DNA from: a virus
Lineage: Duplodnaviria > Caudoviricetes
Direction: 5' to 3' (one strand)
Virus record (IMG/VR): IMGVR_UViG_3300037440_000405
Span: 1 to 52,818 of that record
Length of the DNA stretch: 52,818 nucleotides
Numbering within the stretch: the stretch's first letter is position 1; the number at the start of each line of letters is the position of its first letter. Under the pieces are notes generated by a model that saw only the letters and a list, made by a program, of their open reading frames with translations, was not told the origin of the DNA and searched no databases. The translations under genes and the position numbers were made by a program. Of this stretch, positions 10,965-40,389 are shown one piece after another.

Positions 10965-11459
10965 ATGGAGACGACAGTCGCGCCGGTGGCCACCAAGCGG
11001 GCCATACCAGCCGACACGTTCGCAGCCCGGCTCATGCTGGCCAGGGCGCACGCAGGTCACCTGTCGATCCGAGAGGCAGCCGACAGGTGTGGGCTGGGGC
11101 GTGGGGCATGGACAAACTGGGAACGCGGGGCACTACCCGTCGGCGAGGGTCAGATCGTCAAGATCATCTCTGAGAGTCTCGGCGTGGACCGGGACTGGCT
11201 GCTGTTCGGCGGCCCGCTCGCCCAGCCCGAACGGCGTGGCCCGCGCACCATCACACGCCGCCGCACGCTTAACAAGACCTATGCGACACCGGCCGTCCGG
11301 ACGAGCGGGCCGCGGTCCCAGCGGGCGCTACTCGCCCCCGGGCATGCCACCGGGCGTCACCCGACCGGCCGACCCGCGTCCGCTACGTCCGGCACAACCC
11401 CGGCGGAGCTCCGCCGTCCGGCCATCACCGGCCACACCCACTCCGGTAGCAGCACGTGA
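10965..11459 (+). CDS. XRE-family immunity repressor with a long low-complexity C-terminal tail
   Basis: LSIREAADRCGLGRGAWTNWERG...LGVDRDWLLFG; upstream of the integrase, divergent from cro. Confidence 0.85.
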   Translation: METTVAPVATKRAIPADTFAARLMLARAHAGHLSIREAADRCGLGRGAWTNWERGALPVGEGQIVKIISESLGVDRDWLLFGGPLAQPERRGPRTITRRRTLNKTYATPAVRTSGPRSQRALLAPGHATGRHPTGRPASATSGTTPAELRRPAITGHTHSGSST

Positions 11460-12259
11460 CCGTCACCGCACACTCTGATCTGATGCACTCGGATCTGCTC
11501 GAGGAGTACCTGGCAGACCTGGCGCACAACGCATCCCCCGGCACCGTCGCCACCTACACCACCGTGCTGCGGCTGGCCCACCGCCACCTGCCCGCCGGTG
11601 TCGTCGTCGCCACCACCGCCGAGCTCCGGGCGTGGCTCGTCTCCCGCGACTGGACGCCGGCCACCCGCTCCACCTACCGGGCCGCGTTACGCGGCCTCCA
11701 CAAGTGGCTGGTCGACCGGGACTACTCAGACTATGACCCCAGTGCCCGGCTGCCCCGGGTCAAGATCCCCTACCGATTGCCGAACCCGACCACCGACGAT
11801 GAGACCCGCCGGCTGCTCGCCTCACCTGAGCCGGTCGGCCGGTGGGCGCTGGTCGCCGCGTACACCGGCGCCCGGTGCATCGAGATCTCCCGGCTACGAC
11901 GCGAGGACGTCAGCCAGGAGTCGGTCCGGCTGGACGGCAAGGGCGACAAGGAGCGCCTCGTACCATGCCACCCGCTGATCTGGGCAGAGCTCCGCGACCT
12001 CGACGGACTGCTCGCAGCCGGGTGCACGGCGAAGATGGTCAGCGACCGCTGCCGGCACCGCTGCCGGCGGCTGCACATCACCGGCGGGCTCCACCGGCTC
12101 CGCGCCTGGTACGCGACCACCCTGCTCGCCGGCGGCGCCAACCTGCGCACCGTGCAAGAACTCCTCGGGCACACATCGCCGACGACCACCCAGGTGTACA
12201 CGCTGGTCCCGCCGGAGTCGCTGCGAGCCGCGGTCAACGGCCTGCCCGACCTGGCGTGA
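11456..12259 (+). CDS. int: Tyrosine integrase/recombinase, short (267 aa, no arm-binding domain)
   Basis: Catalytic R (TGAR), K (GKGDKER), HRLR, LLGH and Y (TTQVY). Confidence 0.93.
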   Translation: MTVTAHSDLMHSDLLEEYLADLAHNASPGTVATYTTVLRLAHRHLPAGVVVATTAELRAWLVSRDWTPATRSTYRAALRGLHKWLVDRDYSDYDPSARLPRVKIPYRLPNPTTDDETRRLLASPEPVGRWALVAAYTGARCIEISRLRREDVSQESVRLDGKGDKERLVPCHPLIWAELRDLDGLLAAGCTAKMVSDRCRHRCRRLHITGGLHRLRAWYATTLLAGGANLRTVQELLGHTSPTTTQVYTLVPPESLRAAVNGLPDLA

Positions 12260-12286
12260 CGCGATGTGTTACCGTGACGAACGCAC

Positions 12287-12353
12287 CTCCCGGTGCGAAG
12301 CAGGTCGGATACTTCGCGAAAAGAATCCCGGCCAGCGATCTTGATCTCGGGAG
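12287..12353 (+). ncRNA. Short Y RNA (Ro-binding, YrlB-like)
   Basis: Terminal stem CUCCCG/CGGGAG, Ro-helix-like GGUGCGA.../CUUGAUCU, inner stem GCAGGUCGG/CCGGCCAGC; motifs shared with the next RNA; upstream of the TROVE gene; candidate -10 TACCGT at 12270. Confidence 0.7.
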
Positions 12354-12369
12354 ACGCCACAACTTCAGA

Positions 12370-12514
12370 TGCTGTGCCCGGTGCGTAGGAGACGGTTACT
12401 TCTCCTTTTAAGAGAGTGGTTGCAGGTTCGAGTCCTGTCGGCGACTTCGGCCGCTGTAGCTCAATCGGTAGAGCACTTTGTCACCGGTTCCGACCTTGAT
12501 CTCGGGCACCAGCA
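12370..12514 (+). ncRNA. yrlA: YrlA-type Y RNA with a circularly permuted tRNA-like domain
   Basis: Terminal stem GUGCCCG/CGGGCAC; T arm GCAGG-UUCGAGU-CCUGU precedes an acceptor-like stem capped by CUUCGG, then D arm UAGCUCAAUCGGUAGAGCA; adjacent to Ro60. Confidence 0.88.
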
Positions 12515-12518
12515 CTGG

Positions 12519-12552
12519 AACGGGCTCCTCCCCAGACGGAGAGGAGCCCGTT
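12519..12552 (+). promoter_or_regulatory. 12-bp hairpin occluding the Ro60 Shine-Dalgarno
   Basis: AACGGGCTCCTC/GAGGAGCCCGTT perfect inverted repeat; GAGGAG lies 9 nt before ATG 12556. Confidence 0.7.
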
Positions 12553-12555
12553 GTC

Positions 12556-14139
12556 ATGACCAAGTTCAACCGGCCCACCACCCGCTCCGCGATCGGCAAC
12601 TCGTCGATCATCACCGCCGAGCAGTCGACCGGGACGACCTACGAGGGTGCGCCCGGCTACGCCCGCGACGCCAAGGGTGAACTGTTCCTGCTGGCCATCT
12701 CGAACCTGGTCGGGGAAGCGACGTTCTACGAGAAGTCCGGCGACCGCGACCAGCGGTACCGCGAGTTGGTACGCCAGGTGGCCATCGCCGACGCGGAATG
12801 GATGCTGTCGTTCCTGAGCTGGCTGCGTGGCGAGGGCAACATGCGCTCGGCCTCGCTGGTCGCCTCGGCCGAGGCGGTCAAGGCCCGGCTGGACGTGATC
12901 CGCGCCGGGCTTGAGGCCGCCAACGGTGCCCGCAACCGGCAGATGATCGACGCCGTGTTGCTGCGCGCCGACGAGCCGGGCGAGATGCTGGCCTACTGGA
13001 CCTCCCGGTACGGCCGGGCGATCCCGAAGCCGATCAAGCGTGGCGTCGGCGATGCGGTGCGGCGGCTGTACTCGGAGCGGAATCTGCTCAAGTACGACAC
13101 CAACTCCCGCGGGTTCCGGTTCGGCGACGTGCTCGATCTGTGCCACCCGCGGCCGGCCGCGCCGTGGCAGGGCGACCTGTTCCGGCTGGCGTTGGACCGC
13201 AGGCACGGACGCCCGGCGGTGGAGGAGGACAGCCTGCCCATCATCGTCCGTAACCGTGGCCTGCGTGAGGCCGCCGACGCTGAGCCGGACGTGCTGCTCA
13301 ACCCCGACGCGCTGCGAGACGCCGGCATGACGTGGGAGGACGCGCTGTCGCTGGTCGGTTCACGGGTGGACAAGCGGGCGTTGTGGGAGGCGCTGATCCC
13401 GTCCATGGGGTACATGGCGTTGCTGCGCAACCTACGCAACTTCGACCAGGCGGAGGTCTCCGACGACATCGCCGCGACCGTGGCAGCACGGCTTGCGGAC
13501 CCGGAGCAGGTCGCCCGGTCGCGGCAGTTCCCGTTCCGGTTCCTCGCCGCATACCGGCATGCCCCGTCGCTGCGCTGGGGTCACGCCCTGGACCGGGCGC
13601 TCACCGCTTCGCTGGCGAACCTGCCGGAGTTGCCCGGCCGGACACTCGTTCTGGTTGACCGGTCCGGCTCGATGTTCGGCCGCATGTCCGGCCGGTCGGA
13701 GTTGGACTTCGCCGACTCCGCGACGATCTTCGGCGCGGCGTTGGCGATGCGGAACCTGGGCCGGGTGGACCTGGTGCAGTTCGGCTCCGGATCGCAGCCG
13801 GTGCCGGTGCAGCGCGGCGAATCACTGCTCAAGATCCTCGACCGATTCGTCGGCATGGGGGGTACGGAGACCGCGGCGGCCGCGCAGCGCCACTACGGCG
13901 GGCACGACCGGGTTGTCGTCGTCACCGACGAGCAGGCGTGGTCCGGTTACGGCAACCCCGGCGATCACGTGCCGGGACAGATCCCGCTGTATACGTTCAA
14001 CCTCGTCGGATACCAGCACGGGCACCAGGGTGGAGGGGTCAACCGGGTCACGGTCGGCGGTGGCTTGACCGACCATGCGTTCCGGCTGATCCCGCTCCTG
14101 GAGGCGGGGAAGTCGGGTACGTGGCCCTGGGATAGCTGA
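12556..14139 (+). CDS. rsr: Ro60/Rsr TROVE-domain RNA-binding protein with a C-terminal vWA domain (527 aa)
   Basis: TYEGAPGY, LFLLA..NLVGE.TFYE, LLKYD, MGYMALLRNLRNF, SRQFPFRF; MIDAS motif VDRSGSM...GGT...TDEQ. Confidence 0.95.
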   Translation: MTKFNRPTTRSAIGNSSIITAEQSTGTTYEGAPGYARDAKGELFLLAISNLVGEATFYEKSGDRDQRYRELVRQVAIADAEWMLSFLSWLRGEGNMRSASLVASAEAVKARLDVIRAGLEAANGARNRQMIDAVLLRADEPGEMLAYWTSRYGRAIPKPIKRGVGDAVRRLYSERNLLKYDTNSRGFRFGDVLDLCHPRPAAPWQGDLFRLALDRRHGRPAVEEDSLPIIVRNRGLREAADAEPDVLLNPDALRDAGMTWEDALSLVGSRVDKRALWEALIPSMGYMALLRNLRNFDQAEVSDDIAATVAARLADPEQVARSRQFPFRFLAAYRHAPSLRWGHALDRALTASLANLPELPGRTLVLVDRSGSMFGRMSGRSELDFADSATIFGAALAMRNLGRVDLVQFGSGSQPVPVQRGESLLKILDRFVGMGGTETAAAAQRHYGGHDRVVVVTDEQAWSGYGNPGDHVPGQIPLYTFNLVGYQHGHQGGGVNRVTVGGGLTDHAFRLIPLLEAGKSGTWPWDS

Positions 14140-16041: not shown

Positions 16042-16404
16042 TCACCATGTCTCCCCCATCTGCTGATCGAGGGAAATCCGGCCGATCTGGTCCAGCCTGT
16101 CGCGCAGCCACAACACTTCACGCTCCGCCTTCGCGGCACGCTGCTCAGCCTTCGCCGCCCGCTGCTCAGCCTTCGCCGCCCGCTGCACCAGGTCTTCGCT
16201 GGCGCCACGCTCCTGCGCGGCGAGCACGGCGTTGGCGGCTTTCGCCGGCAGGCCGCAGTACGGGCATTTATCGCCGCTGCGGAACGCCTCGTGGATATCT
16301 GAGGTGTACGAGTCGCACGCGGGGCAGATCGCCTTGTCGCTCACGTGGCACCCCCGTATCGGATGGAGATCATGCCGTCTCTCCTTCGGTGGGAGCGTGC
16401 CCAT
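16042..16404 (-). CDS. Zn-finger plus coiled-coil hypothetical protein (start uncertain)
   Basis: CPAC and CPYC; QRAAKAE heptad x3 encoded by a 21-bp tandem repeat at about 16127-16186. Confidence 0.6.
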   Translation of the reverse strand: MGTLPPKERRHDLHPIRGCHVSDKAICPACDSYTSDIHEAFRSGDKCPYCGLPAKAANAVLAAQERGASEDLVQRAAKAEQRAAKAEQRAAKAEREVLWLRDRLDQIGRISLDQQMGETW

Positions 16405-16876
16405 GGTGACGGCGCACGTAGCCGACCACTTCTGCCTGGATCACATCCATCACGGTCATGCCATGCTGGCGGGCGATCTCTGAGACTTGAGCCCAGACCG
16501 ACTTGACCGGTCGGCGACCCTTGGTTGAGGTGATGTGCTTGCCGTCCGCTTCCGGGATGACCGGGTTACAGATGGGTCTGTGTCGGCGAAGTTCCGCCGT
16601 CTCCGCCCGAATTGCTTCCCGGTGATTCGGGAACCATCTGATCTCGTGTCTCTCAACCATTGGCCACCACGCATCCTCCTGCATGCACTTGTGGCTCGCC
16701 AATCGGTTCCTCGGGTTCCTGCTGCAGCCGATGTACAAGATCAGGTCGCACGGACCGTAGATCCAGTAAACGGCGTGAGGCTGAGCGCGTGGCCGGTGTG
16801 GATCAAGTATGTTATCTTCCAACTCTTCCTGAAGATCGCAGATTTCATCCCGCGTCCAGGTCTGCAGCTGGCCCAC
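16370..16876 (-). CDS. GIY-YIG nuclease-family protein with a possible C-terminal RHH
   Basis: AVYWIY...LYIGCSRNPRNRLASH...WW...E motif; GTG overlaps the upstream TAG. Confidence 0.75.
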   Translation of the reverse strand: MGQLQTWTRDEICDLQEELEDNILDPHRPRAQPHAVYWIYGPCDLILYIGCSRNPRNRLASHKCMQEDAWWPMVERHEIRWFPNHREAIRAETAELRRHRPICNPVIPEADGKHITSTKGRRPVKSVWAQVSEIARQHGMTVMDVIQAEVVGYVRRHHGHAPTEGETA

Positions 16877-17094
16877 TAGTCGCCTGCCTTCAAGTCGGTT
16901 CGGCTCCCAGGCCCCGGCCGGTTCTGCAACCACTGGTCGAGCGTGCTCTTGCGCCACACTGGTACGGCGTGGCCACCCTTGATCTCGCGACGGTCGGGTG
17001 GCGGGGCCTGCCGACGTGCCACGTACGGCCGCCAGGCATTGACCGACACGCCGACGTACGCGGCGGCGGCCTCGTTGCCGATCAACTCTTCCAT
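16876..17094 (-). CDS. Small MerR/AlpA/excisionase-like HTH protein
   Basis: IGNEAAAAYVGVSVNAWRPYV...PPPD...PVWRKSTLDQW. Confidence 0.8.
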   Translation of the reverse strand: MEELIGNEAAAAYVGVSVNAWRPYVARRQAPPPDRREIKGGHAVPVWRKSTLDQWLQNRPGPGSRTDLKAGD

Positions 17095-17100
17095 GCCTCA

Positions 17101-17202
17101 ACTCTACACCGCGTGGTGGCCGGAGAGACCTAGCACCGCGCGGTGTGATGTACACCACATTCTCTATTTCGGCTTGCATCAGTACACCGCGCGGTGTACG
17201 CT
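17101..17202. promoter_or_regulatory. Second divergent promoter pair with three palindromic operators (CACCGCGYGGTG)
   Basis: Sites at 17107-17118, 17134-17145 and a perfect 18-bp GTACACCGCGCGGTGTAC at 17182-17199; plus-strand TTGCAT-N17-TACGCT; minus-strand TAGAGT shortly before the HTH ATG. Confidence 0.8.
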
Positions 17203-17300
17203 TATCCCATAAGCAAGAACAACTACACAGGGGTTCCGGGCCAAACGAGAAAAGCGGCCACCGCGGGTAGAACCGCCAGGGACAAGAGCAAGAGGGCCTA

Positions 17301-17459
17301 CGCCCTCAAGGCACCATCACCTCCACTCTCAGCGAACCGCAACGAGCGGGGAAGCCGCGCAGATGCGGCGACAGGCCGACGATCTGAGAGCCGGCCAAGT
17401 CGCACCTGCTCCTCCTACGGGACCAGATGCAGCGCAACGGTGGTGGTGCCTTGAGGACG
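17301..17459 (+). ncRNA. Candidate structured RNA / leader of unknown class
   Basis: CCTCAAGGCACCATCACC (17304-21) pairs with GGTGGTGGTGCCTTGAGG (17439-56); nested CTCTCAG/CTGAGAG and GCCGC/GCGGC stems. Confidence 0.6.
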
Positions 17460-17482
17460 CAGGAACGAACGAGAGGACGATC

Positions 17483-17683
17483 ATGGAGACCTACCAGGAT
17501 TACGTGGCCGACCGGCTGGCCGCGTACGGCGGATGCGACGACGAGGCCACGATCGCGGAGATAGCCACCACAGCCGTCGACTACGAGCGGGCGCGGCAGG
17601 CCGGAAACGCCGAGCGTGCCAGGGACCTGCTGGAGCACTACGAGACGCTGACGGACCAGCTGGGCTTCGACCCGCTGGCCTGA
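17483..17683 (+). CDS. Hypothetical protein (66 aa)
   Basis: GAGAGGA SD; followed by a GC hairpin at about 17692-17713. Confidence 0.65.
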   Translation: METYQDYVADRLAAYGGCDDEATIAEIATTAVDYERARQAGNAERARDLLEHYETLTDQLGFDPLA

Positions 17684-17772
17684 GAACAGCCGGGGGCCCG
17701 GGCCGGGCCCCCCCTTCCCGACGGAAGATCAACCCCCACACCCCCGCACCACCAACGGAAGGAGCAAGGATC

Positions 17773-18087
17773 ATGACCACCACCGCTGACCAGAGCTACA
17801 CCGTCCAGATCCAGGCCGCCGTGCCGAACACCCCGATCACCATCGCCGACAAGGAGACGTTGGAGAACCGGCGAGTGGTCGGATACCGCGCGGCTGACTG
17901 GCAGGCGATCACCCCGCCCGAGACCGTCACCGATCCCGGCACCGCCGCCGAGCTCGCCCGCAACATCCTGTACCAGCAGGACGTGGCCGAACTGACCGGG
18001 CAGGGTCTGGTGCGGGTGCGGGTGTGGGATGGCGCCGACGCGGACACCGGTACCGAGCCGACCGCCGTGGCCTACGACGAGGAGTGA
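17773..18087 (+). CDS. Hypothetical protein
   Basis: AAGGA SD, ATG 17773. Confidence 0.65.
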   Translation: MTTTADQSYTVQIQAAVPNTPITIADKETLENRRVVGYRAADWQAITPPETVTDPGTAAELARNILYQQDVAELTGQGLVRVRVWDGADADTGTEPTAVAYDEE

Positions 18088-18092
18088 GGACC

Positions 18093-18269
18093 ATGACCAT
18101 GACCCTGGCCCAGGCCACCCTGGAGATGGCCTTCCGCATGTCCGAGGCCCGGGTGGAGTTGCGCACCGCTGCGAACGCGGCCGCCTTCCACACCGCGGCG
18201 CTCAAATATCAGCGGCGTGCCCTGGCCCTGACCCGGCTGGTGTCCGCCCTCGACCTGCAGACCCGCTGA
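18093..18269 (+). CDS. Hypothetical protein
   Basis: GAGGA SD, ATG 18093. Confidence 0.55.
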   Translation: MTMTLAQATLEMAFRMSEARVELRTAANAAAFHTAALKYQRRALALTRLVSALDLQTR

Positions 18270-18376
18270 CGCTGCCCGGTCCCAACCACCCTGCGGGGCG
18301 GCGGGGGCCGAGTGGCGGAACAGACCCGCCACCCGACCGCCGAGGGCGCACATCCCCCGGCAAGAATGAGTGAATC

Positions 18377-18823
18377 ATGAGCATCGACATGCAGCCCACC
18401 ACCCCAACCGTCCCCGCGAAACCCCGCCGCCGCTGGCCGTGGATCGTCACCGCCCTGGCCGCGCTGATCATCGGCATTGCCATCGGCGGCGCCGGCGAGA
18501 GCGCCGAGACCACCACCGACACCAGCCCCCCGGCGAGCGTGGTCACCGTCGCCGACGTCCCCGACGTCTGCCTGCAGGCCCTGGACAACGCCGAGGACCT
18601 GATGGGCTTCAGCGCCGACTTCGCTGGCATCGCCGCCGAAATGCCCATGATGATCTACGACGGGATTGAGGCTGGGATGGCCTACGACGCTGCGGCGATC
18701 GAGGACCTGACCGACAAACTCAACGGGATCACTGCGGACGTGGAGGAGTTGACCGAGCAGATCGGTTCGTCTGACTACCGGGACAACGCCGACCAGTGCC
18801 GCGATTCGGCCGGCAGCAGCTGA
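18377..18823 (+). CDS. Single-pass membrane protein (possible superinfection exclusion)
   Basis: RRRWPWIVTALAALIIGIAIG TM segment, acidic helical ectodomain with two Cys. Confidence 0.7.
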   Translation: MSIDMQPTTPTVPAKPRRRWPWIVTALAALIIGIAIGGAGESAETTTDTSPPASVVTVADVPDVCLQALDNAEDLMGFSADFAGIAAEMPMMIYDGIEAGMAYDAAAIEDLTDKLNGITADVEELTEQIGSSDYRDNADQCRDSAGSS

Positions 18824-18838
18824 CCCAGCGCACAGCAA

Positions 18839-18872
18839 GAAGCCCGGCCGAGGGAGACCTCGGCCGGGCTTT
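18839..18872. terminator. Bidirectional terminator between convergent units
   Basis: AAGCCCGGCCGAGG-GAGA-CCTCGGCCGGGCTT perfect stem. Confidence 0.8.
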
Positions 18873-18895
18873 GCCCCGCGTGAACAGCAGCCAGC

Positions 18896-19114
18896 TTACG
18901 GCCGGAAGTCACCCTTGTCGGCGTTCGGCGGCTTCGGGTCCTCGCTGTTGTTGGTGTTGCCGCCGTTATTGACGCACACCCACCCGCCCTGCGACGGATT
19001 CAGGGCGCCCACCTGCCCGGGTGGGCAGGTGATCGGGTCGGCGTGCGCCGAGTTGGCGAGCCCGGCGGCGAACAGCAGCCCCACCGCGATTGCGGTGAAG
19101 ATCTTGATACGCAT
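18896..19114 (-). CDS. Small secreted protein
   Basis: Signal peptide ending AHA-D; two Cys. Confidence 0.6.
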   Translation of the reverse strand: MRIKIFTAIAVGLLFAAGLANSAHADPITCPPGQVGALNPSQGGWVCVNNGGNTNNSEDPKPPNADKGDFRP

Positions 19115-19281
19115 GGTGCCTCTTCTCGTTTTGGCTTGAGCCTCCATTATCGCAGCGAACGAGCCCGGCCGGGAGGGCCACCATTCCCTCCCAGCCGGGC
19201 TCCCACCCCACTGCACCTACCCGAGTAACGTCTAGTCGATCTTGTCGGGTTTCCGACTATGGGCACGCTCCCACGGCCACG

Positions 19282-19548
19282 TCACTCCCAAAACCAGCGC
19301 CACGGCCAATGCGTCATGTGCGGGACCAGAAACACCGTGAGCAGCACTAGCGCGGTGGTGAACACGGCCACGGTCCACTTCCGGCGTGGCCGCGGCGGGT
19401 AGACACCGAGCTGCCGCTTGGTCCACTCGGTGAGCGTGCCCCCGCGGCCGCGGTGCAGCAGGGCGACCGTCTCCGCGGCGACGAATCCGCCGGCCAGCAG
19501 GATCAACCACGCCGTCCAGAACCAGGTGAGCCAGCCCGGGTCGGTCAT
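19282..19548 (-). CDS. Two-TM membrane protein
   Basis: Two hydrophobic helices. Confidence 0.6.
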   Translation of the reverse strand: MTDPGWLTWFWTAWLILLAGGFVAAETVALLHRGRGGTLTEWTKRQLGVYPPRPRRKWTVAVFTTALVLLTVFLVPHMTHWPWRWFWE

Positions 19549-19792
19549 CAGTCCGCCACTCCGCAGCTGCACGGCTCGTCCGGGTCGGCACACCAGTAGG
19601 CGTGCGGGTCCGGCTCCACTACCGGCTCAGTCGGGCATGTGTCACCCGGCGCGTGGCCACCGCGCGCCAGGAACACCGCTCGGCGTACTCCGGTCAGCCC
19701 GTCCCGGTCGGCATGCTGCTCGGCCGCCTCTGCGAGATGACTCATCATCCTTTGCAGGTCAGCCACGGCACCCTGGCAACACGTCTTCTCGC

Positions 19793-20068
19793 TCACGACT
19801 GGTCCGCCGGCTTGGTCAACTGCTCCCGCTCCTGCACCTGCTCGGCCGCCCACAGCAGCACGTCCGAGGGCTCCTTCAACAGAGCGGTCGTGCTGGCTGG
19901 CTGGCTCAGGCCGTACACGGTCAGCCAGGTACCGATGGTGGTAACGGCCACGCCCACCCACTCCAGCGCCGTGACGGCTGTCTCGGGCGGAGCCAGCGCG
20001 GCACCCAGCGCGGTCAGGCCGGCGACGGCCGCGCCACCGAGCGCCTTTACCTGTTCCTTTAGTGCCAT
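19793..20068 (-). CDS. Putative holin
   Basis: KALGGAAVAGLTALGAAL...TALEWV...TVY two-TM actinophage holin pattern downstream of the lysin. Confidence 0.7.
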   Translation of the reverse strand: MALKEQVKALGGAAVAGLTALGAALAPPETAVTALEWVGVAVTTIGTWLTVYGLSQPASTTALLKEPSDVLLWAAEQVQEREQLTKPADQS

Positions 20069-20078
20069 GTCACACCTC

Positions 20079-20423
20079 TCAGTCGCATCGTAGGCTTGGC
20101 GGTTCCGGCACCGGATGCTCCGCCAGCGCCGTGCGGTACTCATCGGAGGCGGCCAGGTAGGCGGCCAACGCCGCCGCGAACTCCTGCTCATCCTGCTTCG
20201 CGACAGCGCGGACCAGTTCGTCCAACGCGTCCGCGCGGGCCTGGGCCAGCCCGCCGAGTAGAGCGGTGCGGGCCACGCTGGCATCACCCCACGCCTGCAC
20301 GCAGGTGATGATCTCGCTCTGCTGCCGGGCGACAGCTTCCACGCGTAGGAACCCGGGTACGGCCACCACCGCCAGCATCAGCAGCGCGGCGAACAGCGGA
20401 CGGTCCCGCAGCCAGCGGACCAT
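20079..20423 (-). CDS. Membrane-anchored lysis-cassette protein
   Basis: N-terminal TM, helical body, Cys pair. Confidence 0.6.
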   Translation of the reverse strand: MVRWLRDRPLFAALLMLAVVAVPGFLRVEAVARQQSEIITCVQAWGDASVARTALLGGLAQARADALDELVRAVAKQDEQEFAAALAAYLAASDEYRTALAEHPVPEPPSLRCD

Positions 20424-20426
20424 CAG

Positions 20427-20678
20427 TCAACCACCGCCGCCAGCAGGGCCAGACCCAGCCCCGCCACCAGCCACGTCGTTGTGAGCGCGTACTGCCTGAT
20501 CACCTGTAGCACCATGGCTACCTCGTCTCGCTTCGTCGATTCGCATGAAAATCGGGCTGAGCAGGATCGCGCCCAGAAAGCTGAGCACAGCCGGCCGGGC
20601 CCCGCCGAGCGTGATCTCGAAAATGGCCAGGCCTTGTGCGGCGACCACAACCATGCCGTCGCGCAATGATCGGCTCAC
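20427..20678 (-). CDS. Small membrane protein (lysis cassette)
   Basis: Two hydrophobic segments; GTGA overlap with the lysin. Confidence 0.5.
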   Translation of the reverse strand: MSRSLRDGMVVVAAQGLAIFEITLGGARPAVLSFLGAILLSPIFMRIDEARRGSHGATGDQAVRAHNDVAGGGAGSGPAGGGG

Positions 20679-21562
20679 CGGGGTTCATCGACTCCGCCGA
20701 GCACGGTACGCAGCGCGGCCTCCACCTGCGCGGCAGTGGCGCCTGGCACCGCAGCCGCCAGCGCGGCCGGCAGCTCGGCCAGCTGTGCGGCCACCGCCTG
20801 GTCATGCTTTGCCAGCTCGGCGGCGACCGCAGCCGCCACGTCCTGCCCGGCCACGGCGGCGAGGATTGCCGCGTTCTCGGTCCGCGCGGCCTTGACCTCG
20901 GCCAAGACGACCTTGCCGTACGCCCAGCCGTTGCGGGCGCCAGTGCCCACGGCGTAGGTGCCGTGGCCGAGCCGGCCGGTGCCCTGCCCGGCCCACACCT
21001 TGTCGTTGACCACGAACGCCATCCGTTTGGCCACCGCGTCGGCGATCTCGTCTGCTGTTGGCATGTCGTCCTCCTCTGTTGGTAGCCCGGCTGCGATCCA
21101 CGCCCGCAGGCGGGAGCCGGGGCATTCGGTGGCCTGCCCGGGTAGCTGGCCGTGGCCGGAGACCAGCAGCCGCCGGCCGGCGCGGCGCTGCGCCTCCTCC
21201 CACACCCAGCGCAGCGTGGCCAACGCGGCCGGGGACGGGGCGGTCGAGCCGGACGTGCCGATCCAGCACACCCCGACCCAGGCGGTGTTCTGGTTGGCGG
21301 CGTGGGCGCCGATGGCCGACCAGGTGCCTTGCCGGCCCTCCCACAATCGGCCGTCCTGTGTGACCAGCCAGTTGTATCCGATGTCCACCCAGCCATTCGA
21401 GTCCATCTGGTAATCCTGGATGGCGCGGACGGTTTGGGTGGTGGGGCCGGCGGAGTGGTGGATGGCCACACCCACCCGCTGCCCCCAGGTGGTGGTGGAG
21501 ATGCTGCCCTTGGGTGCCCGGGCGCCCCACTGTGCGCGGGTCATAATCGTCGGCGTAGTCAT
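20675..21562 (-). CDS. Endolysin, N-acetylmuramoyl-L-alanine amidase (PGRP/Amidase_2)
   Basis: RAQWGA, IHHSAG, WVDIGYNWLV, IGAHA, GH...TECPG. Confidence 0.92.
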   Translation of the reverse strand: MTTPTIMTRAQWGARAPKGSISTTTWGQRVGVAIHHSAGPTTQTVRAIQDYQMDSNGWVDIGYNWLVTQDGRLWEGRQGTWSAIGAHAANQNTAWVGVCWIGTSGSTAPSPAALATLRWVWEEAQRRAGRRLLVSGHGQLPGQATECPGSRLRAWIAAGLPTEEDDMPTADEIADAVAKRMAFVVNDKVWAGQGTGRLGHGTYAVGTGARNGWAYGKVVLAEVKAARTENAAILAAVAGQDVAAAVAAELAKHDQAVAAQLAELPAALAAAVPGATAAQVEAALRTVLGGVDEPR

Positions 21563-22596: not shown

Positions 22597-24830
22597 GCTC
22601 CCACATAGGCCCGGCGGTGGAACGTGATCGCCGCGGCGGTGGCGTGGGACTTGACGATCCCGTTGACGCTGCGGGTGACGGTCAGGGTGGTAGTCCGCGC
22701 GGGGAACGTTCCGGCCATCGCCGCTACGGCTGTCACAGTCATCCGCTCACCGCCGATCACAATGTCGAAGTCGGTCTCGTGTACCCAGTCCGGTCCGGCG
22801 CCGCAGTTGATGTCCACCCCGGTTTCGGTGGTGTCGAGCGCTTCGGCGGTGACCGCCGCATCGGAGCCGAGGATCTGGTAACCCTCGTCGTCGGCGACGG
22901 TCGGCACCGCGAACGGCAACGCCGGGGTGGTGTGCGCGTCGATCAGCCACTCATCGGTGTGGATCGACTCGGTGAGGCCGAGCACCAGCTGCGACACGTC
23001 CTCGGCTGAGATCCACAACGGTGTGTTCCGGATGACGATCAGCCCATCGGGGTCCAATGTTTGCACGGCGGCGACCAGCGCCGCCCCGTCGGTGCGGGTG
23101 GACAGGCCACGCAGGTTGGTGCGCAGCATCGGGTACCGGTCCTCATCCCACGTGCCGTGGTGCACCCACCATGCGGCGATTTCCCCCAGGTTCCCGTCGC
23201 CGAGCGCGTCGAAGGTTTCGCCACGGTCGACCCTGCCGGCGGCGGTGATCCCCCGCGGCCCGCCGGTCACCTGGGCTCGCGCACTCCCACCGTCGCGGCG
23301 TTCCGCCGTGGCGTCGTTGACCATGCCCAGGTCGTCCGGTGTCGGATCAACCGGCGGCGACAGCTGACCCGCCGCGAAGTCCAACGTCAGGTCCGGGTCA
23401 CGCGGCAGGTACAGGCTGGACAGCGTGTTGAAGTGCAGGCCCAGCGCGCTTCTCTGCTCGACCAGGATCGGCGCCCGGCTGCCCGCGGCCTCGACCTTGG
23501 CGCACGCACCGATCACCTCCAAAAACGATCCGGGGTACTGCGCCCCCATCGGCGCAGACTCGTCCAGGTCGCCGGTGGAGGTAAACGCGACGTCGCGCTC
23601 GTCACACTGCCGCTCCACCCGCCGGCCGGCCGTTTCACCGGCGTGGCCGTTGTAGGCGGCCATCACGTCGGCCACGTCCGGGATCGCCCCGGTCCACACC
23701 AGCAACTGGCCGACATCGACACCACCCAGGTCGTCAACGGTCAACGAAGACCATTCCACGGTCACCTGGCTCAATGCAGGCAAGGTTGCGGCGCTCGCGT
23801 CGTCGGTGATGTCCACCACGGTCACACCGTCGACCATGATCCGCATCCGGGCGTCGGTGCCCGACTCATCATCGACCTGGAACCGGAAGTGATGGGTGCT
23901 CGGGTCGAACACCGCAGGCACTGCGTTGTTCAGGTCGGTGAACTGGAGAACGCCGGCTCGCCGGAACGCAACCTGCGCCGCAGGATCTCCACTGTTCTGG
24001 AACAGCACCACGGACCATTTATGCAGGACGTCTACAGCGTCCCATGCATCGATGTCGACGCGGAGACGCTGGGGAAGCGTGTCAGGGTTCGGCAGATCAC
24101 CGCGGCGGCGCAGGAAATCCACCGCGAAACTACCCGCCGCGGCGCCGCCCACACTGGCGCTCAAGGCGCCAATGTGAACCATAGACACCGCCGTCAACGA
24201 CGGCACGGTCATCGGTGTCGGTAGATGCGGATGCAGAGTGCCCTGCCCGAACTCGGGCCGCACATCTATCGCCGATGACGTCGCCGCGAACCGCAGCGGC
24301 TGCCCACCCACACCAGATGCGGCCGACGTCGACCCCGCGAGATCCGACATCGGCCAGTAGCCGGTGGGCGGACTCACGGCCACGAACCGGGCCACCGAAT
24401 CCTGCAGAGGCCGACTCGGCACACCCAGACGACGCAGAATCCCTGCCGCCTCCACCGGCACCCACAAGTCGTTCTGCGACACATCAGAACGCGGCGGCCA
24501 CGACACCACCTCCTGCACCGTGCGCACCGTGGGTGTGTCCCCCACCAGCCCGGCCGACACCCGGATCGGAGTGTTCGCGCCGATCAGCCCGAACAGGTCG
24601 GACATCGGGTTCCGCGGGGAATACCGGTTCGACACCGACGTGTTGACCTTCGACAGGCCGTTGTTCAGGACCAGGGTGAGCCCGGCCGGGTCGGCCACCC
24701 CACCATCCGCCTGGTTCGCCACCCCCCGGTCGATGTTGATCGGCGAAGTGGTGCGCACGTCGGCGCTGATGTCATTCCACACGCCGGAGTAGAACAGCTC
24801 GACCGTGGCAGTGACCAACTCGCCGCTCAC
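22587..24830 (-). CDS. Minor tail protein (LamG-like central region)
   Basis: Follows the TMP; YWPM.D motif; actinophage tail-hub-like sequence. Confidence 0.75.
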   Translation of the reverse strand: MSGELVTATVELFYSGVWNDISADVRTTSPINIDRGVANQADGGVADPAGLTLVLNNGLSKVNTSVSNRYSPRNPMSDLFGLIGANTPIRVSAGLVGDTPTVRTVQEVVSWPPRSDVSQNDLWVPVEAAGILRRLGVPSRPLQDSVARFVAVSPPTGYWPMSDLAGSTSAASGVGGQPLRFAATSSAIDVRPEFGQGTLHPHLPTPMTVPSLTAVSMVHIGALSASVGGAAAGSFAVDFLRRRGDLPNPDTLPQRLRVDIDAWDAVDVLHKWSVVLFQNSGDPAAQVAFRRAGVLQFTDLNNAVPAVFDPSTHHFRFQVDDESGTDARMRIMVDGVTVVDITDDASAATLPALSQVTVEWSSLTVDDLGGVDVGQLLVWTGAIPDVADVMAAYNGHAGETAGRRVERQCDERDVAFTSTGDLDESAPMGAQYPGSFLEVIGACAKVEAAGSRAPILVEQRSALGLHFNTLSSLYLPRDPDLTLDFAAGQLSPPVDPTPDDLGMVNDATAERRDGGSARAQVTGGPRGITAAGRVDRGETFDALGDGNLGEIAAWWVHHGTWDEDRYPMLRTNLRGLSTRTDGAALVAAVQTLDPDGLIVIRNTPLWISAEDVSQLVLGLTESIHTDEWLIDAHTTPALPFAVPTVADDEGYQILGSDAAVTAEALDTTETGVDINCGAGPDWVHETDFDIVIGGERMTVTAVAAMAGTFPARTTTLTVTRSVNGIVKSHATAAAITFHRRAYVGAWG

Positions 24831-39174: not shown

Positions 39175-40389
39175 CTCGTCGTCGTCTTCCTCAGGTTCAC
39201 CCGGCGGCCCGTCATCGCTCGGCGGCGGGGCGGCACCCGGTGTCGGGTTCGGCTCATCGCCCCAGTCGACCGGCGGCAACTCTTCCTTCTCCCGGACCTC
39301 GTTCACGACCTTGAACCGCTTGTCCAGGGCAATCTTGTACGCCTGGTAACGGCGCAACGTGTCCGTCTCCAACAGCGCATCCCGGTTCAGCCGCACATAC
39401 TGCGGCCGCGGCAGGAACATGCTCAACAGCCGCTCCAGCCTGCGCAGCCACTTGTTCAACGCGTACTTCAGCACGTGCAGGTCACGGTCGATCAGGTTGC
39501 TGTAGGTGAGTGAGCTGCCCTTGGTGCCGTAGCCGAGGATCTCCGCGATCCCCGGCCCGAAGATCCGGGCCGACTCAGCGGCGGTGAAACCCTGCGTCTC
39601 CAGGAACTGCGACTCGTCCGGGTTGAGTTGGATCTTCTCGAACTCCCAGCCCTTGCCGAACACCAGCGGCTCACGCGACCCCCGCAGCGCGGCCATGAAC
39701 CGGTCCTTGGCAGTCTGCGACTGTTCCGGGTCAAGCGGGACCTCAGCGTTCCGTAGAATCCCCGACGGGTGGGCGCCGTCCTGGAACCACTGCAGGCCGA
39801 ACCTTGTGGTCGTCAAGTTCAGGCCAATCGTCCACGCGTGATACGCCACCGGCGACAAGCCGAGCAGGCAACCCGGCACCGGGTTGACCCGACGGTGCAG
39901 CATCCTGTTGAGCGGAACTTCCCGGCCCTGGTGCAGCCACTTCACCTCGCCGTCCTCGATCAGCGGGTGCACCCGGTCCGGGTGGAAGATGTCCACCTGC
40001 TTGAGCATCTGCGCCGGGCCGCGCTCCAGGACATCCCCGTACAGGTTGCCCCGCAGCAGCCAGGACACGAGCACCCGGTAGCACCAGTCCTCCAGGCCCT
40101 GGTCCGACCCGTCCGGGTCCTGTAGCCAGCCGGGCATTGGCAGCTCCTGCCGGGTCGACCCTTTGCCGCGGAACACGTCCGCTGGCAGTTCGGAGCCGAT
40201 CGACGCGATCAGGTCCACCGCGGATCGGACCGCCACCGACTGGAGCGACGATTCGGCGGTTGAAAGGTCAACCTCGTTGAACTGCTGCCGGGTCAGCGCG
40301 AGCAGGGCTTGCGACAGTTGGTTCACCGGCCATCCGGCGCGTTGCTCCGGCGCGCGCGGCCGGGTCCGGGCGCGGAAGAACACACTCAC
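39172..40389 (-). CDS. HK97-family portal protein
   Basis: LLRGNLY, GLSPV, FQDGAHPSG, SQFLET, VNEVR..EELPP. Confidence 0.93.
   Translation of the reverse strand: MSVFFRARTRPRAPEQRAGWPVNQLSQALLALTRQQFNEVDLSTAESSLQSVAVRSAVDLIASIGSELPADVFRGKGSTRQELPMPGWLQDPDGSDQGLEDWCYRVLVSWLLRGNLYGDVLERGPAQMLKQVDIFHPDRVHPLIEDGEVKWLHQGREVPLNRMLHRRVNPVPGCLLGLSPVAYHAWTIGLNLTTTRFGLQWFQDGAHPSGILRNAEVPLDPEQSQTAKDRFMAALRGSREPLVFGKGWEFEKIQLNPDESQFLETQGFTAAESARIFGPGIAEILGYGTKGSSLTYSNLIDRDLHVLKYALNKWLRRLERLLSMFLPRPQYVRLNRDALLETDTLRRYQAYKIALDKRFKVVNEVREKEELPPVDWGDEPNPTPGAAPPPSDDGPPGEPEEDDDE

What the first reader, a model, noticed from the sequence alone, without database searches (positions are those of the whole stretch)
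17209..17482. Unclassified structured RNA (about 270-nt leader with a ~160-nt multibranch domain)
Seen: a long gene-free stretch, purine-rich on the plus strand, in an otherwise tightly packed genome. An 18-21-bp closing helix (17301-21/17439-59) includes a G-U pair that works on the plus strand. It encloses CUCUCAG/CUGAGAG, GCCGC/GCGGC and GCACCUG..UCC-UACG-GGA..CAGAUGC stems. An upstream hairpin, GAGGGC-CUAC-GCCCUC (17292-17307), competes for the base of the helix. I cannot match it to a known family. Inference: a novel sRNA, antiterminator, riboswitch-like element or ribozyme, and a possible Ro60 client.
Basis: partly seen in the sequence, partly recalled or inferred. Interest (0 to 1): 0.7.

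Follow-up and report, generated by a model that had tools for sequence, protein, structure and literature searches.

The report
Modular structured leader RNA in actinophages
The 274-base untranslated start of a small accessory operon in an uncultured high-GC phage folds into a nearly invariant 50-base three-way junction followed by a swappable domain clamped by a 20-base-pair helix, a design shared by eleven phage sequences and matching no catalogued RNA family; its function is untested.

Summary
17095-17482 is non-coding. A 20-of-21-pair helix (17301-21/17439-59) closes a roughly 117-nt interior with probability about 1.0 and was never matched in 200 shuffles. No Rfam family fits.

The finding is one half of a two-part element. 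From the predicted start (about 17209) the leader carries a roughly 50-nt module (17233-17283, two hairpins inside a 5-bp stem). This module is nearly invariant in 11 loci, including phages that share almost no proteins with this one. It always sits 20-37 nt after a promoter with locus-specific operators.

After the module come unrelated sequences with one architecture. A short hairpin (H1) has its loop and 3' arm re-used as the start of a 17-23-pair clamp around a branched interior. Evidence for a plus-strand RNA:
- 6 compensatory pairs
- about 15 changes that keep pairing through G-U wobble on the plus strand
- promoter and gene orientation

Best reading (0.4): a leader or ncRNA precursor. 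The module docks a host factor, H1 guides folding and the clamp is a double-strand RNase site.

The Ro60-client idea is not supported: 0 of 8 related records encode Ro60. No RNA data exist. An earlier scan note (e1-3423346) appears to describe the same family on other DNA.

The parts
17106..17197 (.). Three operator palindromes of the CACCGCGYGGTG type (17106-19, 17133-46, 17184-97). The last one fills the promoter spacer.
   Evidence: matches with 0, 1 and 2 mismatches cluster here. The other 7 matches in the window carry 2-3 mismatches and the total (10) is at chance level (expected 9.4); the 72-aa HTH protein has an 83%-identical homologue only in G004, which is the one other locus with the same operator type.
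17174..17202 (+). Promoter: TTGCAT (17174-79), 17-nt spacer, TACGCT (17197-17202). Predicted start about 17209.
   Evidence: Read. A TTGnnn-16/17-(T/C)AnnnT pair lies 20-37 nt upstream of the module in 11 of 11 loci. I read this by eye on the printout; the script's stricter rule flagged 5. The generic scan found none. In close relative L002 the same -10 and TATCCCAT are followed directly by an ATG (leaderless ORF).
17209..17232 (+). A-rich 5' tail of the transcript with no conserved structure.
   Evidence: the composition is similar but the sequence varies between loci.
17233..17283 (+). Conserved module, a three-way junction. P1 17233-37/17279-83. P2 17239-42/17256-59 with a 13-nt loop. P3 17263-66/17273-76 with loop GUAGAA.
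   Evidence: Alignment A2: 45 of 59 columns invariant in 9 loci. add 2 loci with one loop change; 100% of cells paired, one G-C to A-U compensation and one U.G to C-G change in P1, but 63 of 500 shuffles do as well; model R1 scores 84-92 bits once per record; the next best hit is 17 bits. P2 and P3 p about 0.97. P1 is only p 0.02 in this window (+2.9 kcal/mol if forced), although it is in the optimal fold of L008, L011 and L012.
17292..17307 (+). Hairpin H1 (GAGGGC-CUAC-GCCCUC). Its loop end and 3' arm are re-used by the clamp. Read as a transient folding guide or a 3' end hairpin after processing.
   Evidence: An equivalent hairpin of different sequence is the local optimum in 9 of 11 loci. 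L034 versus L011 changes both arms.
17301..17459 (+). Clamped variable domain. Clamp arms 17301-21 and 17439-59 enclose a branched interior of about 117 nt (hairpins 17354-69, 17374-96, 17402-30).
   Evidence: Relatives L003 and L004 keep it with U.G to C-G at 17317 and G-C to G.U at 17424. The same two variants appear in contigs of 4 of 4 other runs.
17460..17482 (+). Unpaired purine-rich spacer with ribosome-binding site GAGAGGA (17471-77).
   Evidence: mean unpaired probability 0.73 over 17471-79..
17483..17683 (+). First gene of the cassette: 66 aa, acidic, no family. It is followed by genes at 17773-18087, 18084-18269 and 18377-18823.
   Evidence: 5 protein clusters in 5.8 billion sequences.

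Best explanation
This is the non-coding 5' leader (about 17209-17482, plus strand) of a four-gene accessory cassette. A promoter drives it, and an operator for the divergently encoded 72-aa HTH protein fills that promoter's spacer. The leader has two modules.

The first is a roughly 50-nt three-way junction that is almost invariant across otherwise unrelated phages. I infer that it is the functional core and docks a host component rather than a phage protein.

The second is an interchangeable domain closed by a roughly 20-bp clamp. I infer the following sequence during transcription. Hairpin H1 forms first and holds the clamp's 5' arm. The interior then folds. The longer 3' arm then displaces H1 and closes the clamp.

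I further infer that the clamp is a double-strand RNase (RNase III-type) site. Cutting it would release a stable 5' RNA made of the module plus a re-formed H1 as its 3' hairpin. It would also free the clamped domain and throttle or uncouple the downstream small-gene mRNA. This would resemble the stable processed RNAs made from the repressor-controlled Pleft promoter of L5/D29-type mycobacteriophages.

Shown here: the non-coding status, the structure, conservation, architecture, strand and promoter context. Inferred: transcription itself, processing, and the host partner.
For: - Non-coding status.
- Structure beyond chance.
- Family: 11 loci carry the module. There is one strong copy per record.
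- Conservation outruns relatedness. G003, G004 and G007 share few proteins with the window, mostly at 25-80% identity, yet have the same module. G008 has structural proteins 91-100% identical but lacks the module.
- Contigs from four other sediment runs pile up on 17243-17296 (depth 72-217, against 13-43 in bins 17324-17404). They break into other flanks at both module edges.
- Architecture is conserved without sequence. A clamp of 17-23 pairs starts 10-19 nt after the module in 8 of 10 loci, with 0 of 200 shuffles each. H1 is the local optimum in 9 of 11. No 7-mer is shared by the four interior types.
- Covariation: 6 compensatory pairs.
- Plus-strand RNA: 15 one-sided changes keep pairing through G.U, against 4 rows with an A.C cell. 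The promoter lies upstream in 11 of 11 loci and the genes lie downstream on the same strand.
- The ribosome site is left open, so control is more likely at the level of RNA fate than of translation.
- Precedent: in L5, D29 and StarStuff a roughly 500-nt non-coding stretch lies between repressor-controlled Pleft and the first gene. It gives very abundant, stable, processed RNAs with a common 5' end, and downstream transcript falls by more than 90% (passages of PMC5712189).
Against: - There are no RNA data: no listed run is RNA, so transcription, ends and processing are unobserved.
- Covariation inside the module is thin: one compensatory pair, and 63 of 500 shuffles do as well.
- In this window P1 is disfavoured by the energy model (p 0.02).
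- The identity of the module across phages could reflect recent recombination in one sediment community rather than strong selection. All loci come from similar samples. Scans of one genome per 185,579 species gave only chance hits, so the family is narrow.
- An RNase III site would not need a 117-nt interior.
- The leader is only slightly better conserved than the coding sequence in pairwise comparison. L003: 238 matches, 8 mismatches, 4 gaps, against 191/10/0 for the CDS. L004: 241/7/2 against 179/13/9.
- No sequence similarity to any deposited phage, including L5 and D29.
Confidence: 0.4

Rival explanations
1. Cis-acting RNA antiterminator or anti-pausing element, working like HK022 put, EAR or conAn2. 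The nascent module binds the host RNA polymerase and lets it read through the GC-rich clamps and the hairpin after the first gene into the rest of the cassette.
For: The module is promoter-proximal in 11 of 11 loci. It is compact with two hairpins, like the roughly 70-nt two-stem-loop put RNAs that sit just downstream of PL (passages of PMC9378689). No phage protein co-occurs with it apart from lysis-cassette proteins, which fits a host-polymerase target. conAn2 shows that large leader RNAs with 20-bp flanking inverted repeats can antiterminate (passages of PMC8191782). A strong 8-bp all-GC hairpin follows the first gene at 17692-17712.
Against: The operon is short, 1.2-1.9 kb with 3-4 genes. 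There is a single copy per genome, whereas put has two. No U-tract terminator occurs on the plus strand in 16800-19000. This reading does not explain why H1 and the clamps are conserved. In conAn2 the 20-bp repeats were dispensable.
Confidence: 0.2
2. Passive protective leader. The structures only shield a long untranslated RNA from Rho loading and from 5' and 3' exonucleases or RNase E/J, which stabilises the cassette mRNA. The module has no specific ligand.
For: Nearly the whole leader is paired while the ribosome site is free. Interior sequences are free to differ between types.
Against: A generic shield would not keep 45 of 59 columns invariant across phages with unrelated proteomes. It would not keep H1 in six sequence versions. 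Close relative G008 manages with no leader at all at the same promoter.
Confidence: 0.15
3. Riboswitch. The three-way junction is an aptamer for a small molecule, and the choice between H1 and the clamp is the expression platform.
For: The layout is a conserved 5' junction with invariant junction and loop residues, followed by a variable 3' part with mutually exclusive helices.
Against: The module has only 13 base pairs, and 4 of the 13 positions of its largest loop vary. P1 does not overlap H1; a 2-9-nt linker separates them. The platform ends in neither a U-tract terminator nor a masked ribosome site (0.73 unpaired). Start codons lie 200-370 nt further on. No Rfam aptamer matches.
Confidence: 0.1
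4. DNA-level element. The inverted repeats would be a protein-binding or recombination site, or the terminal repeats of a miniature mobile element inserted behind the promoter.
For: It has 17-23-bp inverted repeats flanking 90-160 bp. Both strands fold equally well. The sequence is mosaic on both sides of the module.
Against: 15 substitutions are tolerated only as G.U on the plus-strand RNA, against 4 of the opposite kind. It is single-copy, with no other 11-mer cluster in the window. There are no flanking direct repeats; the repeated element X lies upstream of the 5' arm and inside the 3' arm. Inner hairpins also covary.
Confidence: 0.04
5. Client or partner of the phage Ro60 (Y-RNA-like).
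For: This phage encodes a TROVE/vWA protein at 12478-14139. A long terminal helix closing a branched domain is Y-RNA-like in outline.
Against: 0 of 8 other records examined encode a Ro60 homologue. Seven of them carry the module and three of those are rated 100% complete. No Rfam Y-RNA-type hit.
Confidence: 0.03

Closest known systems
Stable non-coding RNAs from the Pleft early promoter of Cluster A mycobacteriophages (L5, D29, StarStuff)
   Same: Both are in actinobacterial phages. Each is a repressor- or operator-controlled promoter followed by a few hundred non-coding bases before the first small gene. In L5 the RNA is abundant, stable and processed to species with a common 5' end, and downstream transcript drops sharply without a canonical terminator (passages of PMC5712189).
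   Different: There is no sequence similarity (blastn of 17095-17483 against 50,697 phage records: no match). The Pleft region is studded with repressor 'stoperator' sites, whereas here the operators are confined upstream of the start. Pleft drives the main early operon, whereas this promoter drives a 3-4-gene cassette convergent on the lysis genes. No conserved-module-plus-clamp design is described in the passages I read.
HK022 put RNA (factor-independent antiterminator)
   Same: Both are small two-hairpin RNAs just downstream of a repressor-controlled phage promoter. Neither requires a phage protein partner.
   Different: put is about 70 nt, V-shaped with an RNA triplex, and present twice per genome. 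This module is about 50 nt, has two 4-bp hairpins inside a 5-bp stem, and occurs once per genome. Activity is untested.
conAn2 leader RNA of Gram-positive conjugative plasmids
   Same: A 260-600-nt leader element. In pLS20 a pair of 20-bp inverted repeats flanks a 238-bp centre, with small essential hairpins near the 5' end.
   Different: conAn2 needs the protein ConAn1 to act at a distance. Its 20-bp repeats could be mutated without loss of function. Here the clamp is the most consistently kept feature after the module.
Lambda N leader (nutL followed by an RNase III-cut long-range stem before the N start) and the hok mRNA metastable 5' hairpin. Both are recalled from general knowledge and were not checked in any call.
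   Same: Same layout logic: a promoter-proximal recognition RNA, then a long-range helix that collapses the leader and is an RNase III target. In hok, an early hairpin is later displaced by a distal partner.
   Different: No N-like protein or nut boxes were identified here. The first genes differ between loci. No toxin-antitoxin pair was recognised.
Pre-rRNA leader-trailer helix with boxB/A/C antitermination elements
   Same: Promoter-proximal conserved RNA signals are followed by a long-range helix enclosing a folded domain (title and start of abstract of PMC10250234 only, seen in the listing).
   Different: The scale and cargo differ (16S rRNA). No box elements were tested here.

Membership tests
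Any Rfam 15 family (riboswitches, ribozymes, Y RNAs, phage motifs) | Covariance-model score at or above the family's gathering threshold | tested here: not met
   0 hits in the whole window; the only hit up to E 10 in 17000-17700 is P37 at 15.9 bits (gathering score 50).
HK022 put-type antiterminator RNA | Location just downstream of an early, repressor-controlled promoter | tested here: met
   The module starts 20-37 nt after the -10 element in 11 of 11 loci. An operator lies in the promoter spacer.
HK022 put-type antiterminator RNA | About 70 nt with two long stem-loops, and two related copies (putL, putR) per genome | tested here: not met
   About 50 nt with two 4-bp hairpins inside P1. One copy per record in the window, G003, G004, G005 and G007.
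HK022 put-type antiterminator RNA | Suppresses termination and pausing by binding the polymerase beta-prime zinc-binding domain | not testable with these tools
   Needs transcription assays.
Riboswitch | Conserved ligand-binding aptamer | tested here: inconclusive
   The junction is conserved (45 of 59 columns invariant). It is small, and no ligand can be tested.
Riboswitch | Expression platform that forms a terminator or masks the ribosome-binding site as an alternative to the aptamer | tested here: not met
   No plus-strand terminator-like site. Ribosome site 0.73 unpaired. P1 and H1 do not overlap.
Y RNA / Ro60 partner | Co-occurrence with a Ro60 (TROVE) gene | tested here: not met
   0 of 8 other records have a homologue. 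Only this window does.
Cluster A mycobacteriophage Pleft ncRNA | Long non-coding stretch between a repressor-controlled promoter and the first gene | tested here: met
   274 nt here and 220-400 nt in relatives.
Cluster A mycobacteriophage Pleft ncRNA | Sequence relatedness to the L5/D29 right-end region | tested here: not met
   No blastn match in 50,697 phage records.
Cluster A mycobacteriophage Pleft ncRNA | High abundance, stability and processing to species with a common 5' end | not testable with these tools
   No RNA run listed.
Miniature inverted-repeat mobile element | Multiple copies and target-site duplications | tested here: not met
   Single copy; only scattered 11-12-mers elsewhere in the window. 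No flanking direct repeat seen in the sequence.

The most novel reading that the evidence does not exclude
The invariant 50-nt three-way junction is a self-sufficient RNA that reprograms a core host machine. This would most plausibly be the actinobacterial RNA polymerase, as a put-like antiterminator. It could instead be a ribonuclease or other RNA-binding hub, which it would titrate once released as a stable small RNA. On this reading phages trade the junction as a portable cassette head, and the clamped domains behind it are interchangeable cargo RNAs, each excised by cleavage of its clamp. That would make it the first RNA-only transcription or RNA-fate controller known from high-GC Gram-positive phages, and a natural plug-and-play ncRNA expression platform.
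Probability: 0.15. Interest if true: 0.8.

Novelty: new variant of a known kind. Interest (0 to 1): 0.55.

Why it matters
Structured leaders behind repressor-controlled phage promoters (lambda N leader, HK022 put, L5 Pleft RNAs) are central to how temperate phages time gene expression. Almost nothing of this kind is defined for actinobacterial phages, and the function of the abundant Pleft RNAs is still unknown.

This family separates cleanly into three parts: an invariant core, a conserved folding logic (transient hairpin, then clamp), and freely exchangeable interiors. It is conserved across phages that share almost no proteins, so it offers a compact, mutable model. A 50-nt module and one helix can be tested in reporter, transcription and RNase assays.

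If the module acts on a host machine, it would point to a new RNA-protein interface in Actinobacteria. If it is only a stabiliser, it is still a useful natural part for expression design in high-GC hosts.

Tried and rejected
- **Rfam.** No family at gathering score or at permissive thresholds. ARAGORN found no tRNA or tmRNA.
- **Coding.** The 86-aa ORF 17194-17454 was rejected. Its third-position GC is 0.57-0.73, against about 0.9 in real genes. A 1-nt indel in L003 and L004 breaks the frame.
- **Cultured phages.** blastn ('distant' mode) of 17095-17483 found no match.
- **Relatives through the downstream proteins.**
  - The 104-aa gene led only to L002, which lacks the leader.
  - The 66-aa gene led to L003 and L004. 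It has only 5 clusters in the 5.8-billion protein set.
- **Wider scans.**
  - The metagenome scan gave 1 locus, L012.
  - The genome scan gave 9 hits. All are chance, because the flanks are unrelated.
  - A pattern with all stem positions free gave only the known loci plus one chance hit, L036. No stem-covarying module variants were found.
- **Expression.** No RNA holder is listed among 7 runs. Contigs cannot show ends or strand.
- **Second copy (nutL/nutR-style).** None. The next-best model hits are 10-17 bits, for example window 40184-40244, antisense inside a gene.
- **Trans target in the phage.** Only scattered 11-12-mers.
- **Shared motif among interior types.** No 7-mer is common to all four.
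- **Ro60 link.** 0 of 8 records.
- **Phage protein partner.** Comparing whole records, the only window proteins found in all three module-bearing records (G003, G004, G007) but not in G008 are two small proteins of the lysis cassette, 18896-19216 and 20079-20423. Neither matches any family.
- **Kissing contacts and ribosome-site masking.** I considered loop-loop contacts between L3 and the H1 loop (GUAG/CUAC in the window type only). I also considered masking of the ribosome site by the H1 3' arm. Neither holds in the other types, by inspection.
- **Hairpin after the first gene.** The variant letters at 17697-17708 look like a 1-nt register shift, not compensation, so I make no covariation claim for it.
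- **Literature.** Searches turned up no description of this element. One search returned only unrelated papers. Supplementary files were not consulted, including the Pleft alignment of PMC5712189, which might show whether that RNA has a comparable module.
Full report
**Setting.** The window is a 52.8-kb IMG/VR virus record with direct terminal repeats and 68% G+C. It encodes an integrase and a TROVE/vWA Ro60-like protein on the plus strand at 11456-14139. It also carries a lysis cassette with an amidase endolysin on the minus strand at 18896-21562. The finding lies in a 389-nt gap (17095-17482). To its left is a 72-aa DNA-binding, excisionase-like gene on the minus strand (16876-17094, phrog_597). 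To its right is a 66-aa gene of no family on the plus strand (17483-17683).

- No reading frame in the gap shows the third-position G+C of the neighbouring genes.
- The plus strand is A-rich and T-poor.
- The leader folds at -107 kcal/mol, z = -3.0.
- The closing helix 17301-21/17439-59 has 20 pairs in 21 positions, including U17317.G. None of 200 dinucleotide shuffles reached this, and it forms with probability about 1.0.
- The hairpin 17292-17307 is the best local fold (-12.8 kcal/mol). It shares 17301-07 with the clamp and is fully displaced at equilibrium.
- CUCUCAG/CUGAGAG is out-competed by a GGCCG/CGGCC hairpin at 17374-96.
- Rfam gives nothing.

**The promoter and the switch.**
- Three palindromes of one type lie at 17106, 17133 and 17184, and the perfect one fills the promoter spacer. 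The remaining 7 of the 10 matches in the window are weaker, and the total is at chance level.
- The 72-aa protein has a homologue (83%) in only one of the other records, G004. That is the one other locus with the same palindromes.
- In the closest relative, G008/L002, the same -10 region runs straight into an ATG, giving a leaderless gene with no leader at all. G008's structural proteins are 91-100% identical to the window's.

**Relatives change the picture.**
- Two viral contigs (L003/L006 and L004/L005) carry the whole leader nearly unchanged. Their promoter and operator regions cannot be aligned with the window's.
- Pattern scans then found the 5' part alone in more contigs: L007, L008, L009, L010, L011, L034 and L035, plus one metagenome contig, L012.
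- In all 11 loci a roughly 50-nt module (window 17233-17283) is almost invariant. In the 9-locus alignment 45 of 59 columns never change. L034 and L035 differ by one loop base.
- A covariance model finds exactly one strong copy (84-92 bits) per record.
- The module folds as a three-way junction. P1 is 5 bp, P2 is 4 bp with a 13-nt loop, and P3 is 4 bp with loop GUAGAA.
- P1 shows one G-C to A-U compensation (L012) and U.G to C-G changes. P2 and P3 never vary, so the statistics are weak: 63 of 500 shuffles do as well.
- In this window P1 is not favoured by the energy model.

**Conservation outruns relatedness.**
- Whole-record comparison shows that G003, G004 and G007 (all module-bearing, rated 100% complete) share only a minority of proteins with the window, mostly at 25-80% identity.
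- Contigs from four other sediment runs pile up on 17243-17296 (summed depth 72-217, against 13-43 in bins 17324-17404). They break away into different sequence at both module edges, which reveals further flank variants.
- This could reflect very strong constraint, or recent exchange within one community. I cannot separate the two.

- Directly after the module the sequence differs completely between at least four types: the window type, L007-10, L011/34/35, and L012. No 7-mer is shared by all four.
- The architecture nonetheless recurs. After a 2-9-nt purine linker comes a short hairpin H1, the local optimum in 9 of 11 loci.
- H1's loop and 3' arm then form the start of a long-range helix of 17-23 pairs with at most one mismatch. 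Such a helix is present in 8 of 10 loci tested, with 0 of 200 shuffles each.
- L011 and L035 have a split helix that is not significant by this strict measure (37-40 of 200).
- The L007 and L011 types add a second domain closed by another helix of about 23 bp.
- H1 is kept in at least five clearly different sequence versions: GAGGGC/GCCCUC, CGAAGC/GCUUCG with two different loops, AUGAGGA/UCCUCAU, and AGGAGG/CCUCCU in a loose end. L034 shows a weaker 4-bp candidate, GGCA/UGCC, which was not the local optimum.
- The L034-versus-L011 and X2-versus-L012 differences change both arms.

**Covariation and strand.**
- Within types, RNAalifold alignments give 4 compensatory pairs in the L007 group and 1 in the L011 group, plus 1 in P1.
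- 15 rows show one-sided changes that keep pairing through G.U on the plus strand: 7, 6 and 2. Only 4 rows contain an A.C cell, which would be the wobble of the minus strand. Two of those four lie in a stretch misaligned by an indel.
- Several rows labelled BREAK (87-164, 88-163, 90-161, 121-138, 124-134, 126-132) fall in such indel regions. I count them neither for nor against.
- Together with the promoter in 11 of 11 loci and the downstream genes, this favours a plus-strand RNA. The alternatives were a minus-strand RNA or a DNA palindrome.

**Context.** In the four full-length or near-full-length records the module heads a cassette of 3-4 small genes (1.2-1.9 kb). This cassette is transcribed towards the end of the late and lysis operon. 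The first genes differ between loci. Operators, clamped domains and genes assort independently. For example, the window and L008 share operators but not the domain.

**How it most likely works.**

*Shown:* a non-coding, structured, plus-strand-oriented leader with an invariant 5' junction, a transient hairpin, a clamp, and an open ribosome site (0.73 unpaired).

*Inferred:*
- The module is the functional core and recognises a host component. No phage protein other than lysis proteins tracks with it.
- H1 is a kinetic guide that holds the 5' arm until the 3' arm is made. The same logic is recalled for the hok mRNA, which I did not check.
- The clamp, about two helical turns of near-perfect duplex, is an RNase III-type site. 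Its cleavage would free a stable module-plus-H1 RNA and the clamped domain, and would set the level of cassette mRNA.

The best documented parallel is the roughly 500-nt non-coding region behind the repressor-controlled Pleft of L5, D29 and StarStuff. It yields very abundant, stable, processed RNAs with a common 5' end while downstream genes receive under 10% of the signal (passages of PMC5712189). I put 0.4 on this composite reading.

**Rivals.**
- A put/EAR/conAn2-like cis antiterminator: 0.2.
- A passive stabiliser or Rho shield: 0.15.
- A riboswitch: 0.1. No terminator or masked ribosome site was found.
- A DNA-level or mobile element: 0.04.
- A Ro60 client: 0.03. 0 of 8 related records encode Ro60.

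**Novelty and limits.**
- The element is not in Rfam and has no match in deposited phages.
- My four relevant literature searches found no description of it.
It shares short words with this module and appears to be the same family. That note gave me the Pleft lead, which I checked in the paper.
- The family is narrow: 11 loci plus contig fragments, all from similar sediment or soil metagenomes.
- The host is unknown.
- There is no evidence of transcription.
- The module's own covariation is not significant.

I therefore rate it a new variant of a known kind (a structured phage leader or ncRNA), of moderate interest.

Noticed in passing
window 16876-17202 and L008/G004 23923-24138: The 72-aa HTH protein and the CACCGCnnGGTG operator type co-occur. 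The 83% homologue is found only in G004, the one other locus with these palindromes. This fits a dedicated second switch that controls both divergent operons.
   Followed up: partly
L002 2340-2570 (record G008): The closest relative keeps the same -10 and TATCCCAT but has an ATG where the window has ATA. This starts a leaderless Cys-rich ORF of about 65 aa instead of the leader. It is a natural 'no-leader' allele of the same promoter.
   Followed up: partly
window 17692-17712: An 8-bp all-G/C hairpin with a 5-nt loop lies directly after the 66-aa gene and is kept in L005. There is no U-tract. It is a possible attenuator or 3' stabiliser between the first and second cassette genes.
   Followed up: no
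window 16370-16876 (minus strand): A GIY-YIG endonuclease gene (Pfam E 1.3e-05) with lower G+C (0.57-0.63) than its surroundings. It is probably a free-standing homing endonuclease in the leftward operon.
   Followed up: no
window 12478-14139: The Ro60/TROVE gene is unique to this phage among the 9 related records examined. It has no homologue in G001-G008, including the very close relative G008.
   Followed up: partly
window 17292-17307 (minus strand): On the minus strand H1 followed by UUGCUCUUGU scores as a terminator-like site. The U-rich tail is not kept in the L011 and L012 types, so I treated this as incidental.
   Followed up: partly
L007 about 1380-1560, L011 about 12330-12460 (second domains): The L007 and L011 types carry a second, larger domain closed by a near-perfect helix of about 23 bp. 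Leaders can therefore string two clamped domains in a row.
   Followed up: partly
window 40184-40244 (+): The weakest-but-listed hit of the module model (17.2 bits, rough E 0.003) is antisense inside a 405-aa gene. Similar 14-15-bit hits occur in G003, G004 and G008. It is probably G+C-rich noise.
   Followed up: no
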